A stretch of DNA of 64,000 nt from a virus: the IMG/VR virus record IMGVR_UViG_3300027759_000050, positions 64,001 through 128,000 of that record; one strand, written 5' to 3'. The translations under genes and the position numbers were made by a program. Position 1 is the first letter of the stretch. Every line of letters starts with the position of its first letter. Positions 160 through 25,587 of the stretch are shown here, one piece after another. The notes below the pieces were generated by a model, which saw nothing but the letters and a program-made list of their open reading frames with translations, did not search any database and had not been told where the DNA came from.

Positions 160-603
160 TTAGAAACTAAATTTAAGACCAGCAGTGATACGGCTTCCGT
201 TTTCTGCAACAACACGGTCTTGACCAGCTTGGTAACTGTAATCAAGTCCTGCTGAAACTGATTTAGTGATTGGCAAACGAGCACCAATACCAACTACAGC
301 GGCATAACCATCAGAAGATGGGCCTGATTGGCTATCAATAAAAAGAAGACCAAATTTAGCATCAACTGCTACAGGTCCCATTTTTGCTACCTCTACAGCA
401 TTTACCAAACTATAAGAGTCGGCTGTTGTAGAACGATTGAATCCTGCGGTTAGGTCATAACCTTTTACGGTTTCACCTACTGTAACACCCCAAACATTTT
501 GCGTTGAGCTAAGATTAGTGCCATCATTGATACCAACTTCTAAAGCTTGTGCGCTTGCAAATACACCCATAAGAGATGCGATAAGTACGAGTTTTTTAAT
601 CAA
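160..603 (-). CDS. Small outer-membrane beta-barrel protein (OmpA/OmpW/Lom-like)
   Basis: Signal peptide ending AQA, alternating hydrophobic strands, C-terminal beta-signal GLKFSF; AAGGAG RBS upstream. Confidence 0.75.
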   Translation of the reverse strand: MIKKLVLIASLMGVFASAQALEVGINDGTNLSSTQNVWGVTVGETVKGYDLTAGFNRSTTADSYSLVNAVEVAKMGPVAVDAKFGLLFIDSQSGPSSDGYAAVVGIGARLPITKSVSAGLDYSYQAGQDRVVAENGSRITAGLKFSF

Positions 604-629
604 AATTTTCTCCTTTTGTTGAACAAATT

Positions 630-929
630 GCCGACTGATTGGATAATAAGGACAGTCGGCGAAACCTCAGCTTAGCTTAAGCAGCTAGGCGATATGCGGA
701 GTCGTTTGCATTTACGTTTTTTTACTTTTATCGACTATCTGTGTCGGGTAGCCAATTAGTTTACTCATATGTCGGTCGATTACCGTATCATCCCCATCAA
801 AAGCATATTAGTTCTCAGTGACCGATGCCGTTAAATAACACCGATGTATCTAATATGCTTATGGTGGAGATGGAGGGAGTCGAACCCTCGTGTCGCCATC
901 GTTTCAAAAAATCAGTTTACTACCATTAC
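630..929 (-). ncRNA. ssrA: Circularly permuted (two-piece) tmRNA gene
   Basis: Acceptor piece with T-arm GAGGG-TTCGACT-CCCTC and CATCTCC-ACCA (3' end 862) lies upstream of the coding piece starting GGGGATG (795); 7-bp acceptor stem with G3.U; tag ANDSAYRLAA* at 709-677; terminal hairpin 630-660. Confidence 0.92.
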
Positions 930-1022
930 AACACACTTAGGGAGATTCTCACTCCCGTACCCACAATGTGGGAACTTAGTCTAATTGCACAGCCGAGCCA
1001 TGTCCCAGTTCATAAGTGTGTT
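930..1022 (-). ncRNA. Putative structured RNA or leader in front of the tmRNA
   Basis: 10-bp closing stem AACACACTTA/TAAGTGTGTT enclosing CCCAC-ATT-GTGGG and GGGAG-TGAGAAT-CTCCC hairpins. Confidence 0.5.
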
Positions 1023-1030
1023 AAGTATGT

Positions 1031-21343: not shown

Positions 21344-21875
21344 ATTATACAGGTGCCATAGAGGATTGTCAAGCACTCATAGTTGCGATCCTAGGATTAT
21401 TGTGCAATATAGTGCATTTTTGTGTCATAAAAACAACAGCCCGCAGGATATGTCGCATTATCATGTAAATGAGAATGATTCTCATCCATATTGTCGCATC
21501 CAGAACATTTTAGCGGAGTTTAGTCTGTGTGTCCGATTTTCCTGTGAATAATCCAGCATTATATCAGAAAATCCGAAGGTTGTCAAGCGTTTTCCGCACA
21601 ATTTTCGCATATTTTTCGCTATTGCTTCGAGGTTCTTCATAGATAAAAACTATCGCGGGTCTCTGAGATGCTCTGAGAATATATCAACCACTCTCCACGT
21701 CCATCCCGCTCATTGCTTCGAATCATGCGTCCATTATACCAGAACCCCTGAGCATTGTCAAGCCCTCCTGCCTATTGTATTCCTCTATCAGCCTCTGAGG
21801 TCTCATAGAGGGACTCTATCGATTCGCCCACAGTCGGTGTGCCTCCATCCTATCACAATCCAGAGCCCCTGTCAA
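21344..21875 (-). promoter_or_regulatory. Four tandem leftward sigma70 promoters (21344-21372, 21558-21586, 21733-21761, 21847-21875)
   Basis: TTGACA-17-TATAAT three times and TTGACA-17-TAGGAT once. Confidence 0.85.
21467..21485. promoter_or_regulatory. Fur box
   Basis: AAATGAGAATGATTCTCAT; perfect 7-1-7 inverted repeat TGAGAAT-G-ATTCTCA (Fur consensus TGATAAT-N-ATTATCA). Confidence 0.7.
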
Positions 21876-21885
21876 GCCCCAGCTG

Positions 21886-21975
21886 GACACTACCTGGCCA
21901 CCTGTTTTTTCGGATAGCTTCGAAAAGCTGCAGCTTTCCGCTGGTTTTGACGGAATCAGGTGGCCAGGTAGTGTC
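21886..21975. repeat. 90-bp dyad element at the transcription divergence point
   Basis: Perfect 19-bp inverted arms (21886-21904, 21957-21975) centred on palindrome AAAGCTGCAGCTTT (21924-21937). Confidence 0.9.
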
Positions 21976-21985
21976 TCACCATTTC

Positions 21986-22037
21986 GCAACCATTGTTGTG
22001 ATTTTTCGCTTGACAATCCCACTGGTTCTGGTATAAT
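21986..22037 (+). promoter_or_regulatory. Rightward sigma70 promoter 1
   Basis: GCAACCATTGTTGT...TTGACA-16-TATAAT-GGCAC. Confidence 0.8.
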
Positions 22038-22044
22038 GGCACCT

Positions 22045-22191
22045 ATGAAAACGACACACCCTACACCACCAGCCACAGGATGCGACACCGGCCTTTGCCA
22101 GGACTATGATAGTGGATTGGCCCGCTGGTTCTCCAGCCGGTTGGGTGCTCTCTATTATTTGAGACTCCATTTCGCAACTAAGGTTGCTTGA
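22045..22191 (+). CDS. 48-aa leaderless ORF (MKTTHPTPP...FATKVA), absent from ORF track
   Basis: ATG 7 nt after TATAAT; stops in the -35 box of the next promoter. Confidence 0.55.
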   Translation: MKTTHPTPPATGCDTGLCQDYDSGLARWFSSRLGALYYLRLHFATKVA

Positions 22192-22216
22192 CATTCCTAC
22201 CAATCCATTGTATAAT
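22174..22216 (+). promoter_or_regulatory. Rightward sigma70 promoter 2 plus operator
   Basis: GCAACTAAGGTTGC-TTGACA-17-TATAAT. Confidence 0.9.
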
Positions 22217-22246
22217 GGCACCACTTAAACGAAACAAGGACGCAAA

Positions 22247-22558
22247 ATGATAATCTCCGAATATGATGCTCTGCAAAGCTACGACGAAATGCTGGATGAC
22301 GTATACCCTGAGGTTACTCTGGGCTTCTCCTCCTTCCTGCCTTCCCGTGTGCTGAAGGAAATGGACCGTACGGCCTACAATGAGGGTTTCCATGACTATG
22401 TAAATTCTATGGCTGACGACGGCACCTACGTTGAAGGCTACACCGATGACCTGGAAGAATCCGTCGATGATTCTATGGACGGTGACCACGATTCGGCCAT
22501 GGCCTCTGCGGGCTTTGGTACGGATGAGGATTATGGTTCTTTTGGTAATGAGGAATAA
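22247..22558 (+). CDS. Acidic early protein (DSMDGDHDSAMASAGFGTDEDYG family)
   Basis: AAGGA RBS; very acidic, possible DNA mimic. Confidence 0.8.
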   Translation: MIISEYDALQSYDEMLDDVYPEVTLGFSSFLPSRVLKEMDRTAYNEGFHDYVNSMADDGTYVEGYTDDLEESVDDSMDGDHDSAMASAGFGTDEDYGSFGNEE

Positions 22559-22559
22559 A

Positions 22560-22688
22560 ATGAAATTTTTAATTGGTATGGCTTTTGGTATCATAGTGGC
22601 TACGGTTGGTTTTACTGGCTTTGCTCAGTTGGCCGACCATGGTCTGGTCAAGGTCAAGGCTGCGGCCACTGAGGTGATTGCCAAATAG
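22560..22688 (+). CDS. Small single-TM protein
   Basis: MKFLIGMAFGIIVATVGF...; GAGGA RBS. Confidence 0.7.
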   Translation: MKFLIGMAFGIIVATVGFTGFAQLADHGLVKVKAAATEVIAK

Positions 22689-22697
22689 TTCCAAATC

Positions 22698-22739
22698 GCA
22701 ACTATAGGTTGTGACAGGAAAGACCAACTCTGGTATAAT
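22698..22739 (+). promoter_or_regulatory. Rightward sigma70 promoter 3 plus operator variant
   Basis: GCAACTATAGGTT-GTGACA-17-TATAAT. Confidence 0.8.
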
Positions 22740-22760
22740 GGCACCATCTAAACGAAACAA

Positions 22761-22846
22761 GGTTGATCCAAAAAGCAAGACACGCAAAACGGAACCCACG
22801 CGAAAGCAAAAAGGGAACCACGCAAAAAGTCAAGCACGGATCAACC
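22761..22846 (+). ncRNA. Structured A-rich leader or small RNA
   Basis: 9-bp stem GGTTGATCC/GGATCAACC enclosing three CACGC(A/G)AAA repeats. Confidence 0.5.
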
Positions 22847-22866
22847 ACCTAATTTAAGGACTCCAA

Positions 22867-23235
22867 ATGACCGAAATGACCCGCACCGAAGAGCTTCAAT
22901 CCATCCACTGGGATATGTACAAGGACGCTCATGGCTTCCGTCCTCGCCATGTAAATACCCTCCACTGGACCGAGGAAATGTTCTTGGCTGAATTTGAGGC
23001 TCTCGAGCTGGTCATCCGCCAAGAGGAGCTGCAGCGTGCCTTCGCTGAAGGTAAAGCCGCTGCTCGCTTCGAGGCTCGCGTGGATGACCTGATGGCCACT
23101 GGTGCTAAGGATGCCGAGACGGCCATCCGTTGGATCATGGACGCCGAAGGCGCTAATGGCGACCAAGGCTTCGCTGAGTACCTGCTGGGCCTGCCCTACG
23201 GTTACATTACCAAATTCGCAACCAAAGTTGCTTGA
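22867..23235 (+). CDS. Conserved early protein (D.YKDAHGFRPR family)
   Basis: AAGGA RBS; motif common in T4-like early regions. Confidence 0.8.
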   Translation: MTEMTRTEELQSIHWDMYKDAHGFRPRHVNTLHWTEEMFLAEFEALELVIRQEELQRAFAEGKAAARFEARVDDLMATGAKDAETAIRWIMDAEGANGDQGFAEYLLGLPYGYITKFATKVA

Positions 23236-23260
23236 CTTTTCTCTCAACCGGGTGTATAAT
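23218..23260 (+). promoter_or_regulatory. Rightward sigma70 promoter 4 plus operator
   Basis: GCAACCAAAGTTGC-TTGACT-17-TATAAT. Confidence 0.85.
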
Positions 23261-23293
23261 ACATCCATCGTAAACAAAAAAGGAAACTTTAAA

Positions 23294-23563
23294 ATGGCTA
23301 AATCAAAATCTTTTCTCGGTTCTGCTCTCGCACTCAAGCGTGAAGCTCTGAAGGCTCTCAAAGCTGAAGTCGCTCAAATGGCTAAACAATATGCTCATGA
23401 GCGTTTCGCTATCAAGCAAGATAAATTGGTTATGGCTGCTGCGCGCAAGGAAGCTGCTATCGCAAAAGCGAAAGCTAAACTGGAAAAGCTGACTGCTCCA
23501 GTCGGTGCGAAAGCTCTCAAAGCGAATCGCAAACCATCCGCAGTTATTGTGACCAAGGGCTGA
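23294..23563 (+). CDS. Lys/Ala-rich basic early protein (histone-like composition)
   Basis: AAGGA RBS; GCT/AAA/CGT-biased codons. Confidence 0.75.
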   Translation: MAKSKSFLGSALALKREALKALKAEVAQMAKQYAHERFAIKQDKLVMAAARKEAAIAKAKAKLEKLTAPVGAKALKANRKPSAVIVTKG

Positions 23564-23596
23564 TTATATCACAAGGGGCTTGCTTTGTCAAGCCCC
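23563..23596 (-). promoter_or_regulatory. Antisense sigma70 promoter overlapping a hairpin
   Basis: TTGACA-17-TATAAT on minus; GGGGCTTG/CAAGCCCC stem. Confidence 0.7.
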
Positions 23597-23694
23597 CATA
23601 TAGAAGCATACTGCTTGCCTGACCGAAAAAGTCGTGGTAAACTATAAGAGAAAGAGGTTCGAATCCTCGGGACTGGTAGTGTGCTTCTATATGG
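23596..23694 (+). ncRNA. tRNA-mimic-like small RNA (long closing stem plus T-arm)
   Basis: 19-bp stem with two G.U pairs; GAGG-TTCGAAT-CCTC at 23654-23668; GTGGTAA D-loop-like stretch. Confidence 0.65.
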
Positions 23695-23710
23695 TAACCA
23701 AGGACATAAA

Positions 23711-23941
23711 ATGAACGAAAATTACAAAGCTGACCTGATGCAACGCTTACAAGGACAAACCTTGACCCGTGCCGAACTATTCAAGGATGACCCTGCTTCC
23801 CTAATCGATGCCGTCCTGGATCAGATTAAAACCGACATAGCCATGGGTGACCTGATGGCCATCGAGGGGCTCCTGATGAATTGCCGCGAGGAGGCTCTGC
23901 TGGGATACCTGCCTGAAGAATTCCTAGGATCGCAACTATAG
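23711..23941 (+). CDS. Early hypothetical protein
   Basis: AAGGA RBS before ATG 23711. Confidence 0.7.
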   Translation: MNENYKADLMQRLQGQTLTRAELFKDDPASLIDAVLDQIKTDIAMGDLMAIEGLLMNCREEALLGYLPEEFLGSQL

Positions 23942-23973
23942 GTTGTGACATTCCGACCGAACCTGTGTATAAT
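23932..23973 (+). promoter_or_regulatory. Rightward sigma70 promoter 5 plus operator variant
   Basis: GCAACTATAGGTT-GTGACA-17-TATAAT-GGCAC. Confidence 0.8.
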
Positions 23974-24003
23974 GGCACCATCTAAACGAAACTAGGAAGC
24001 AAA

Positions 24004-24237
24004 ATGTTCAAGACACAATCCGCAGCAAGCAAAGTCCGTACCCTCCGTATGCAAAACCTCCTGAGGGACTTCGGTGACGCTTCGGTTAAAAAGCACAAGA
24101 CCTACGCCTTCTCGGCAGGTTACATGGAGAGCACGGTCCTGTCCATGTTCTCGGAGATGACCAAGGCACAGCAAGAGCATTGGCTTGAGTGCTTCGCGGC
24201 TCGTACCTCTGACGCTATCAAAGCTTTGGAGGCATAA
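24004..24237 (+). CDS. Early hypothetical protein (YAF.AGY.ES motif)
   Basis: AGGA RBS. Confidence 0.75.
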   Translation: MFKTQSAASKVRTLRMQNLLRDFGDASVKKHKTYAFSAGYMESTVLSMFSEMTKAQQEHWLECFAARTSDAIKALEA

Positions 24238-24458
24238 TATGGACAAGGACATGGAGAAGACCTTGACTGGTCTGGCATTCACCTTGACCTACCTGTTGGT
24301 CTTGGTGGTAGTGGTAATGGATACAGTTTACTGGAGGGCAGGATAATGGCATGGTTGGATATGGTTAATGTTCTGATGGGTTATGATATGGCTCGGAGGA
24401 TCGGGCTCGCTCTGGATTGCTCTGTGGCTGGCAAGCTAATCCACAAGGCTAATCAGGC

Positions 24459-24487
24459 AGTATAACACAGGTGGTGGGGGAGGTCAA
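24459..24487 (-). promoter_or_regulatory. Antisense sigma70-like promoter at the end of the rightward arm
   Basis: TTGACC-17-TATACT with extended TG. Confidence 0.55.
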
Positions 24488-24826
24488 GCCCCCACTGCTT
24501 GGAAGCACAGTGGTCGGCAGGGGCTGGCAGCAGTGCCGGCGACAGGCTATGGCGATATGGCGGTGCGTGCTAAGAAAAAGTTCTCCATGGCGAAACTCTT
24601 TTCTTTTCCATTTTATTTTCTGGCCCCTCCAAGCAGTTTTCGAATTTTCACTATTTTCGCCTCCTAATTTTTTTTCAGGAGGCCGCAGAGGCCCTAATGT
24701 TTTTTCCTCTTAGTGGTTCTAGCAACACCTGATGGTTTCACTCTCTTGGTCGATGTACTGACCTTACCTGTCTTTCTATTTGTGGTCTTTGTGGTTCTAA
24801 AAGAACCCGCAATCTTTACCATCTTC

Positions 24827-25587
24827 TCAAATAGTTTCATTCTTTATCTCCCACCTAGTCTTTATTTCCTCTAAGGCTTCTTCGAGCGCCTTCGTTCTTT
24901 GTTCCAAATTGGGGTTCGGATAACTATACTGAGTGGTTACTGTGGTGTTAATATTACTAATTGTACCACCTGATCCTATTGGTAACATAGTAACAGGTAA
25001 CATAGTACCAACGGCAACCGTAATAGCCGGCTGCGGCTGAAATTCATCATTAATAATAGTGGAAGCGAATTTACCTGATATACCGTTGGAACCTTTTTGA
25101 ACATCCTCTATGGTCTTTCTAGCCTTAATGGCTTTTATGCACCATGTTATCTCATCTAAATCAGTTCTGTCCTCATAGGACCCAATATAGTATCCTTCTA
25201 TTTCGTTCAAGCCTTTAAGTTGATTTGCATTACTAACATAGACGTACTCAGGAAAATATCCTTCTAATTCTCCACCATATTCGGTCCACTCATGGAGTTT
25301 CTTTCTTTGGTAATCTTCGAACTCTTTGGGGTTACCCGCCACTATAAAAATTTTCTTCTTGGGGGTCATTTAATCTCTAAGCGTTTGATTAGGTTAGTAA
25401 GCAAAGAACTTGGTGACCTAGGATTGGAAATCTGAAAACCACCACCAGGTGCTCGTTTGACTTTGACACCAGGATTCTGTTTCTTGATTTTCTTAATCAT
25501 CTCCTTATCTTTGGCTTTTTTCTCGGCCGGTGTAAGTTCAGGTTCTTTGTTGATTGGTTCAATATCTTCAATAATTTCTTCGGTCAT
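24827..25587 (-). other. Two hypothetical genes (24827-25369, 25366-25587)
   Basis: ATGA-coupled ORFs. Confidence 0.65.

What the first reader, a model, noticed from the sequence alone, without database searches (positions are those of the whole stretch)
23596..23694. tRNA-elbow mimic: canonical T-arm inside a 19-bp closing stem
Seen: CCAUAUAGAAGCAUACUGC pairs with GUAGUGUGCUUCUAUAUGG (two G.U pairs fix the plus strand). It encloses a small hairpin, GUGGUAA and GAGG-UUCGAAU-CCUC, with no anticodon arm or acceptor end. The AAGCAUA/URUGCUU core resembles the tmRNA intervening stem. Known: bacterial Y RNAs (YrlA) combine a long terminal stem with D/T-like arms. Inference: a Y-like or decoy RNA against tRNA-targeting defences, possibly cut by the same activity as the tmRNA precursor.
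Basis: partly seen in the sequence, partly recalled or inferred. Interest (0 to 1): 0.7.

Follow-up and report, generated by a model that had tools for sequence, protein, structure and literature searches.

The report
Phage tRNA top-half mimic RNA
This 99-base phage RNA gene copies the upper half of a tRNA (acceptor-type helix, T arm and elbow) but has no anticodon arm and no free end; it belongs to a conserved, unannotated family that also occurs in coliphage N4, and its function is unknown.

Summary
Window 23596-23694 (+) folds into a 20-bp closing stem that encloses a small hairpin and a canonical T arm (-40.3 kcal/mol, z -6.1).

It is not a chance hairpin or a decayed tRNA. I found 60 homologous loci (44 distinct sequences) in uncultured phage contigs. 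Weaker but clear homologues occur in cultured phages: N4, G7C, Pylas, FSL SP-076 and the Yersinia T4-like phages TG1 and phiR1-RT.

Covariation supports one continuous helix that runs from the ends up to the T arm, a 3-bp hairpin, and the T stem. A tRNA-type elbow pair is also supported (second G of GG with T-loop C56: G-C, G.U or A-U).

The RNA is single-copy in six large phage genomes. It usually sits in tRNA arrays, with its first bases overlapping the CCA of the preceding tRNA. In this phage it has moved into an early operon; a close relative lacks it at that site and keeps it in the tRNA array.

It is not a YrlA-type Y RNA. Rfam gives no hit, the topology is wrong, and the phage's Ro-like system lies elsewhere with its own RNAs.

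Most likely it is a processed, trans-acting tRNA top-half mimic with an unknown target.

This scan had already flagged the same family on other DNA (N4, and the relative's tRNA array).

The parts
23596..23694 (+). Whole RNA element (99 nt), a member of a conserved phage RNA family; covariance model R1 scores it 117.6 bits
23596..23620 (+). 5' strand of helix P1: outer stalk (23596-23615) plus inner acceptor-like part (CUUGCCU, 23614-23620)
   Evidence: Covariation in 13 pairs within the family and 17 pairs when enteric homologues are included
23669..23694 (+). 3' strand of helix P1: it starts immediately after the T stem (GGGACUGG, with bulged A23672 and a U-U mismatch), then the stalk
23621..23633 (+). 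P2: 3-bp hairpin GAC/GUC with a 7-nt loop of conserved pattern YGNAAAN
   Evidence: Two compensatory pair types (GUC/GAC, GAG/CUC), 100% of cells paired
23634..23653 (+). J2/3: single-stranded joiner with invariant GG (23636-23637), AAACUA and AGA; stands in for the D loop and variable region
   Evidence: Invariant columns; G23637 is the partner of T-loop C23660
23654..23668 (+). T arm: 4-bp stem and loop UUCGAAU
   Evidence: The loop is invariant in 43 sequences; two stem pairs covary
23575..23596 (+). Upstream 8-bp GC-rich hairpin that abuts the stalk; also present in the relative that lacks the element, so it is context and not part of the RNA family
23232..23260 (+). Nearest upstream plus-strand sigma-70-type promoter (11 of 12); the likely source of the transcript that carries the 89-aa gene, the element and the 76-aa gene
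   Evidence: consensus match only

Best explanation
This is a single-copy phage gene for a small structured RNA of about 100 nt that mimics the top half of a tRNA. One continuous helix (P1) runs from the paired 5' and 3' ends up to a canonical T arm and stacks under it, as an acceptor stem does. A GG-containing joiner closes a tRNA-type elbow on the T loop. There is no anticodon arm and no free CCA end. Shown: the structure, its conservation, its single-copy status, its usual place in tRNA arrays, and its relocation here into an early operon. Inferred: it is transcribed with the neighbouring early genes (in other phages, with the tRNA array). Host endonucleases acting on the long stalk then cut it out (RNase III, possibly RNase P at the tRNA-like core). 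The same style of paired spacer joins a 3' CCA to the next 5' end in tRNA arrays and in two-piece tmRNA precursors. The released RNA then acts in trans by occupying a host factor that reads the tRNA elbow and acceptor/T helix. The family is shared by phages as different as N4 and T4-like myoviruses, so the partner should be a universal host factor. My first guess is RNase P. TruB, TrmA, the CCA-adding enzyme and SmpB are alternatives.
For: The fold is far better than chance and is strand-specific. The family has 60 loci and 44 distinct sequences; 45 columns are invariant while the stalk sequence drifts. Covariation: 17 of 31 pairs change on both sides, 96% of cells are paired, 0 of 500 shuffles reach this, and slid controls reach only 34-43%. 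With the enteric homologues, 21 of 32 pairs change on both sides. G.U outnumbers A.C by 139 to 34 in helices, which points to selection on the plus-strand RNA. The acceptor-like helix beside the T arm covaries between groups. The elbow pair is G-C x6 and A-U x2 in A3, plus G.U in L147 copy 2. There is one copy in each of six genomes of 152-300 kb. After relocation, 9 of the 10 differences from the relative's copy lie in the stalk, and 7 of those 9 preserve or restore pairing (two fully compensatory pairs plus three wobble transitions). The 74-nt interior differs at one base. Same-strand tRNAs lie within 300 nt in 54 of 60 loci, and the start overlaps the upstream CCA in 23. Precedent: the tRNA-like module of M. 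smegmatis YrlA is cut by RNase P and receives CCA (PMC4201824).
Against: There are no expression or end-mapping data. The target is a guess. The helix continues past the 12-bp distance at which RNase P normally cuts, and the -1/+1 nucleotides there are not conserved between groups (my reading). The stalk sequence is shared with cassettes that carry unrelated cargo, which would also fit a purely cis-acting processing role. Pairing of GUGG with CUAC as a mini-hairpin cannot be fully excluded; it has 10 unpaired cells and no compensation.
Confidence: 0.5

Rival explanations
1. Purely cis-acting processing module. The long stalk pairs the trailer after a 3' CCA with the leader of the next RNA and is cut (RNase III and/or RNase P) to release the neighbours. 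The tRNA-like core only recruits or positions the processing enzymes, and the excised piece is waste.
For: The first bases overlap the upstream tRNA's CCA in 23 of 60 loci, and the next tRNA starts within 20 nt in 29. The same stalk consensus carries other cargos. Intervening segments of three phage permuted tmRNAs, which must be excised, have the same build with a T arm. Here and in TG1/phiR1-RT the element lies between cistrons.
Against: There is only one copy per genome, while 20-35 tRNA junctions do without it. The 45 invariant core positions and the elbow pair are more than a cleavage signal needs. The RNA was kept intact after moving away from any tRNA.
Confidence: 0.25
2. Decoy for a host anti-phage enzyme that attacks tRNAs. 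The mimic soaks up a nuclease or modifying toxin that recognises the acceptor/T-arm or the elbow.
For: It is a tRNA-shaped RNA with no decoding function, carried by tRNA-rich phages and here expressed from an early operon. The elbow is conserved.
Against: As far as I know, the characterised anti-phage tRNA nucleases cut anticodon loops, which this RNA lacks. Its spread from enterobacterial N4-like phages to freshwater-type contigs argues for a universal partner rather than a sporadic defence system.
Confidence: 0.1
3. Y RNA of a Ro60-like protein (a YrlA analogue). The stalk would bind the phage DUF2828/DUF7788 protein, and the tRNA-like head would tether another factor.
For: The phage encodes a DUF2828/DUF7788 protein. 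So do four of four large contigs with the RNA, at 1.3 to 17 kb from it.
Against: No YrlA or Y RNA model hit. The topology is not permuted. There is no GNCGAA motif and no CAGCAA handle like the three RNAs directly upstream of the DUF2828 gene. The gene is 43 kb away here. N4 has the RNA without DUF2828 or TROVE. The four contigs are related phages, so their co-occurrence is not independent evidence.
Confidence: 0.07
4. Not a functional RNA: a decayed tRNA gene, or a selfish MITE-like DNA insertion with terminal inverted repeats.
For: There is a presence/absence difference with clean borders between two close relatives. The arms look like inverted repeats.
Against: Strong strand-specific RNA covariation, an invariant core across 43 sequences, one copy per genome, and homologues in distant phage families.
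Confidence: 0.03

Closest known systems
Unannotated RNA in the phage N4 tRNA island (EF056009 32932-33044) and its copies in N4-like and Yersinia T4-like phages; labelled 'tRNA-Undet' in a few GenBank records
   Same: A homologue by covariance model (49.7 bits, E 6e-13; 31.7-47.2 bits in the others). It has the same long helix running into the T arm, the same G(G)...AAACUAC joiner, the same placement after a ...CCA end and before a tRNA, and no anticodon arm.
   Different: The enteric copies hold the GG loop inside a 5-bp D-like stem (GAAGU/ACUUC or GGAGU/ACUCC) in place of the 3-bp hairpin. Their stalk sequence is unrelated. No blastn similarity to the window copy.
tRNA-like domain (TLD) of tmRNA
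   Same: An acceptor/T-arm stack plus a stemless D-loop analogue with GG, and no anticodon arm. This phage and others carry two-piece tmRNAs whose intervening segments use the same kind of stem.
   Different: No free 3' CCA, no G3.U70, no P2 helix leading to a message, and no match to any tmRNA model. It therefore cannot be charged as it stands.
YrlA-type bacterial Y RNAs (Chen et al. 2014, PMC4201824)
   Same: A long terminal stem plus a tRNA-like module with T-loop and D-loop features, also found in phages.
   Different: YrlA is circularly permuted (T arm, closed acceptor stem-loop, D arm), carries the GNCGAA Rsr site and lies within 4 kb of rsr. None of these holds here.
Phage T4 species 1 RNA (rnaC), the stable RNA of the T4 tRNA cluster
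   Same: A stable RNA of unknown function from a phage tRNA cluster, with a canonical T arm preceded by an AACUAC motif. Model R1 gives a local match of 20.1 bits over that part.
   Different: Only the T-arm region matches. rnaC is 139 nt with a large extra arm and no long closing stalk. From memory, not checked here, it was reported as an RNase III substrate in vitro.
Plant mitochondrial t-elements and the mascRNA type of tRNA-like processing signals (from general knowledge)
   Same: tRNA-like folds embedded in longer transcripts and read by tRNA-processing enzymes to define RNA ends. This matches the element's position between two early cistrons here.
   Different: Eukaryotic or organellar systems with no sequence relation. 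Those elements have a normal-length acceptor stem with free flanks.

Membership tests
YrlA / bacterial Y RNA | Matches the Rfam Y RNA or YrlA covariance models | tested here: not met
   cmscan of 23400-23900 at E<=10 returned only one irrelevant lncRNA fragment
YrlA / bacterial Y RNA | Permuted order: T arm, loop-closed acceptor stem, D arm, with the ends in the Ro-binding stem | tested here: not met
   The order here is end helix, hairpin, GG joiner, T arm, end helix; the ends lie in the acceptor-like helix
YrlA / bacterial Y RNA | GNCGAA(N)G Rsr-site motif near the 5' end (PMC4201824) | tested here: not met
   The motif is absent on reading the 99 nt and the family consensus
YrlA / bacterial Y RNA | Encoded within about 4 kb of a Ro60/TROVE gene on the same strand | tested here: not met
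   No TROVE in the phage. The DUF2828 protein is 43 kb away on the other strand. N4 has neither
tRNA (RF00005) | Cloverleaf with anticodon arm and a 7-bp acceptor stem with free ends | tested here: not met
   No call from ARAGORN and no Rfam tRNA hit; there is no anticodon arm, and the helix continues for about 25 bp
tRNA-like elbow (T loop closed by a D-loop GG) | Canonical T loop and a G19-C56-type tertiary pair that covaries | tested here: met
   The UUCGAAU loop is invariant in the family. The pair is G-C x6 and A-U x2 in A3, and G.U in L147 copy 2. This rests on few independent events
tmRNA TLD / TLD-only variants | Chargeable acceptor end (CCA, G3.U70) and a match to tmRNA models | tested here: not met
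   No CCA after the helix, U.G rather than G.U at the equivalent position, and no tmRNA model hit
New phage family defined here (model R1) | Long P1 continuous with the T arm, GG...AAACUA joiner, T loop; scores with R1 | tested here: met
   117.6 bits, full length
RNase III processing stem | About 20 bp or more of near-perfect dsRNA; cleavage by RNase III | not testable with these tools
   The length criterion is met. Cleavage needs an enzyme assay or rnc-mutant RNA-seq

The most novel reading that the evidence does not exclude
Phages carry a modular 'stalk-and-cargo' RNA system. A shared paired stalk bridges a 3' CCA to the next 5' end in tRNA arrays and in two-piece tmRNA precursors, and it carries interchangeable cargos that can move between loci. 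This cargo, an anticodon-less tRNA top half, would be matured by RNase P and CCA addition (as shown for M. smegmatis YrlA) into a mini-tRNA or TLD-like RNA. That RNA would engage the translation or ribosome-rescue machinery (SmpB, EF-Tu or a synthetase), so the phage would tune trans-translation or tRNA processing alongside its own tmRNA.
Probability: 0.1. Interest if true: 0.85.

Novelty: new variant of a known kind. Interest (0 to 1): 0.58.

Why it matters
Phage tRNA clusters have long been known to hold stable RNAs of unknown function (T4 species 1 and 2). This work defines one such family precisely. It gives a covariation-backed structure and a tested tertiary pair. It shows that each genome keeps exactly one copy, even when the copy moves out of the tRNA array. 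It also shows that the family reaches from uncultured tRNA-rich phages to the laboratory phage N4. The family is missing from Rfam and from almost all GenBank annotations. Because N4 and E. coli are tractable, the questions of what reads a tRNA top half that can neither decode nor be charged, and of how the paired spacers in tRNA arrays and two-piece tmRNA precursors are removed, become directly testable.

Tried and rejected
- Rfam at gathering and at E<=10: nothing for this region.
- blastn of the window element against 50,697 GenBank phages: no match. Homologues appeared only through a motif scan and the covariance model.
- Scan of bacterial and archaeal genomes with the joiner-plus-T-loop motif: three hits. 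All matched only the joiner/T-arm part of R1 (14.6 and 12.1 bits; the third did not score), so they are not family members. From the motif, they may be variable arms of class II tRNAs.
- The single-sequence fold that pairs UGCC with GGUA (model B): rejected. It has five unpaired cells in the family, and N4 and G7C do not support it, whereas they compensate in the acceptor-like pairing.
- GUGG/CUAC mini-hairpin: 10 unpaired cells and no compensation, so left open but disfavoured. CUUG/CAAG pairing: 26 unpaired cells, rejected.
- RNase P -1/+1 consensus at 12 bp from the T loop: U/R in the family and U/U in N4, but A/U in G7C, so not conserved and dropped (reading).
- Hammerhead-type core: absent.
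- 7-nt P2 loop as an anticodon loop: position 33 is G and the stem has 3 bp, so rejected.
- Literature: no paper in the library holds both 'N4-like' and 'tRNA-like'. Other searches found nothing on this RNA.
- Correction to my notebook entry 4: only L147 has two family copies. In L132 the preceding element is a different cassette.

Full report
**The observation.** Window 23596-23694 (+) lies between an 89-aa basic-protein gene (23294-23563) and a 76-aa gene (23711-23941). Both sit in a plus-strand block rich in sigma-70-type promoters.
- The plus strand folds to -40.3 kcal/mol. Shuffles give -20.4 +/- 3.3 (z -6.1, 0 of 200 as good). The minus strand reaches only -30.0.
- ARAGORN finds no tRNA here. 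Rfam 15 finds nothing even at E<=10.
- The window belongs to a complete 160,679-bp phage record. That phage has 28 tRNAs at 130.5-138.4 kb on the other strand and a permuted tmRNA.

**A conserved family.**
- A motif scan of IMG/VR, refined once, gave 60 loci with 44 distinct sequences; 43 sequences, the window's copy among them, were aligned.
- In that alignment 45 columns are invariant: the T loop, GG, AAACUA, AGA and the segments flanking the T arm. The stalk sequence drifts.
- Of 31 pairs, 17 show changes on both sides and 96% of cells are paired. None of 500 shuffles reaches this, and shifted controls fall to 34-43%.
- G.U pairs outnumber A.C mismatches by 139 to 34, so selection acts on the plus-strand RNA and not on a DNA palindrome.
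- This excludes a decayed tRNA gene.

**The structure.**
- RNAalifold pairs GCCY with GGG-C immediately after the T stem. This makes one helix (P1) from the termini to the T arm.
- The single-sequence fold pairs UGCC with GGUA instead. That alternative has five unpaired cells in the family.
- Model R1 then found homologues in cultured phages:

| Phage | R1 score (bits) |
|---|---|
| N4 | 49.7 (E 6e-13) |
| phiR1-RT | 47.2 |
| TG1 | 45.7 |
| G7C | 38.2 |
| FSL SP-076 | 35.5 |
| Moonfish | 32.7 |
| Pylas | 31.7 |

- In these phages the segment next to the T arm reads UGGUU/AACCA or UGGC/GCCA. That compensates for the acceptor-like pairing and is incompatible with the alternative fold.
- With these sequences included, 21 of 32 pairs change on both sides.
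- The 3-bp hairpin P2 and the T stem each have two covarying pairs.
- The enteric copies enclose the GG loop in a covarying 5-bp D-like stem instead of P2.

**The elbow.** In tRNA, G19 pairs with C56.
- Here the second G of GG and T-loop position 56 are G-C in the family, in N4 and in the G7C group.
- They are A-U in TG1 and phiR1-RT.
- They are G.U in the second copy in L147.
- The number of independent events is small, but the changes fall exactly where the tRNA model predicts.
- The RNA is therefore a tRNA top half: an acceptor/T stack plus an elbow. It has no anticodon arm, and its acceptor-like helix continues into a stalk instead of ending in CCA.

**Context.**
- In 54 of 60 loci a same-strand tRNA lies within 300 nt.
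- In 23 loci the first two or three bases are the CCA of the upstream tRNA.
- In 29 loci the next tRNA begins within 20 nt.
- N4 shows the same arrangement.
- The RNA is single-copy in this genome and in five other contigs of 152-300 kb. One contig (L147) has two copies.

**Relocation.**
- A close relative (170.5 kb; its 76-aa protein is 93% identical) has the same hairpin and downstream gene but lacks the element at that site.
- The relative keeps its copy in the tRNA array between tRNA-Gln and tRNA-Ser.
- At that array slot this phage has a different long-stem cassette.
- The two copies differ at 10 positions. Nine lie in the stalk, and seven of those nine preserve or restore pairing (two fully compensatory pairs and three wobble transitions). 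Only one of the 74 interior bases differs.
- The RNA therefore stayed under selection after leaving the tRNA array. This points to a product needed in its own right.

**The stalk.**
- Stalks with the same consensus carry unrelated cargos in this genome, in N4 and in other contigs.
- In three phage contigs, the intervening segment of a permuted tmRNA is such a cassette with a T arm stacked on the closing stem. That segment lies between the CCA end and the 5' end of the coding piece.
- This phage's own tmRNA intervening stem shares a 7-nt core with the element, but the pattern was derived from those two sites.
- The stalk therefore looks like a general paired spacer that is removed during maturation. 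Which nuclease removes it is not known.

**Not a Y RNA.**
- No TROVE gene is present.
- A DUF2828/DUF7788 protein exists 43 kb away. It is preceded by three RNAs with a CAGCAA handle, one of which has a permuted tRNA-like module. The element lacks that handle and the GNCGAA motif of YrlA.
- Four large contigs with the RNA also have DUF2828, but they are related phages and the distance varies from 1.3 to 17 kb. N4 has the RNA without DUF2828.

**Function.**
- My preferred reading (0.5) is a processed, trans-acting tRNA top-half mimic aimed at a universal host factor that reads the elbow and acceptor/T helix. RNase P is my first guess. [quoted passage not shown]
- A cis-only processing role (0.25) fits the placement. 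It does not fit the single copy, the invariant core, or retention after relocation.
- The defence-decoy reading (0.1) and the Y RNA reading (0.07) have little support.

**Prior art.**
- No paper in the searched library describes this RNA.
- A few N4-like GenBank records call it 'tRNA-Undet'.
- Earlier notes of this scan had flagged the N4 copy and the relative's array copy. I re-derived both here.

Noticed in passing
window 23563-23591 (-): A perfect TTGACA-17-TATAAT promoter with a TG extension on the minus strand. Its -35 lies inside the hairpin at 23575-23596, and it points antisense into the 89-aa gene. The sequence is identical in the relative (L176).
   Followed up: partly
window 21500-25000: 19 sigma-70-type promoter matches against 3.9 expected, five of them 12 of 12, facing both ways. 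This is an early-region promoter array.
   Followed up: no
window 586-1030 (-): A permuted two-piece tmRNA (tag ANDSAYRLAA) behind a consensus promoter. Its leader forms a stem (AACACACUU/AAGUGUGUU) that resembles the stalk consensus of the cassettes, and its intervening segment is closed by an 11-bp stem.
   Followed up: partly
own genome 136481-136582 (-), outside the window: A long-stem cassette with a 17-bp stalk that starts in the CCA of tRNA-Gln and carries an unrelated 63-nt cargo. It fills the slot where the relative has the tRNA-like RNA.
   Followed up: partly
L169 361-2150 (own genome 130860-132650, -): A 476-aa DUF2828/DUF7788 protein preceded by three small RNAs, each with an (A/U)CAGCAA handle. 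The middle RNA has a T arm in the permuted, YrlA-like order. This is a separate Ro-like system in the same phage.
   Followed up: partly
L005, L021, L026, L029, L035, L037 and about 15 more loci; N4 L171 32800-32934: Another recurrent phage RNA with an AGUCCAGAC motif, GUGGUAAG and a T arm, ending in CCA. I did not identify it.
   Followed up: no
L023 7667-7942, L074 72-334, L102 1115-1534: Phage permuted tmRNAs whose intervening segment is a long-stem cassette containing its own T arm.
   Followed up: partly
L171 32705-32790 (phage N4): A second N4 cassette directly after tRNA-Thr. Its 3' arm (CUGGUAGUGUGUU) matches the freshwater family's stalk, but it carries a different cargo.
   Followed up: no
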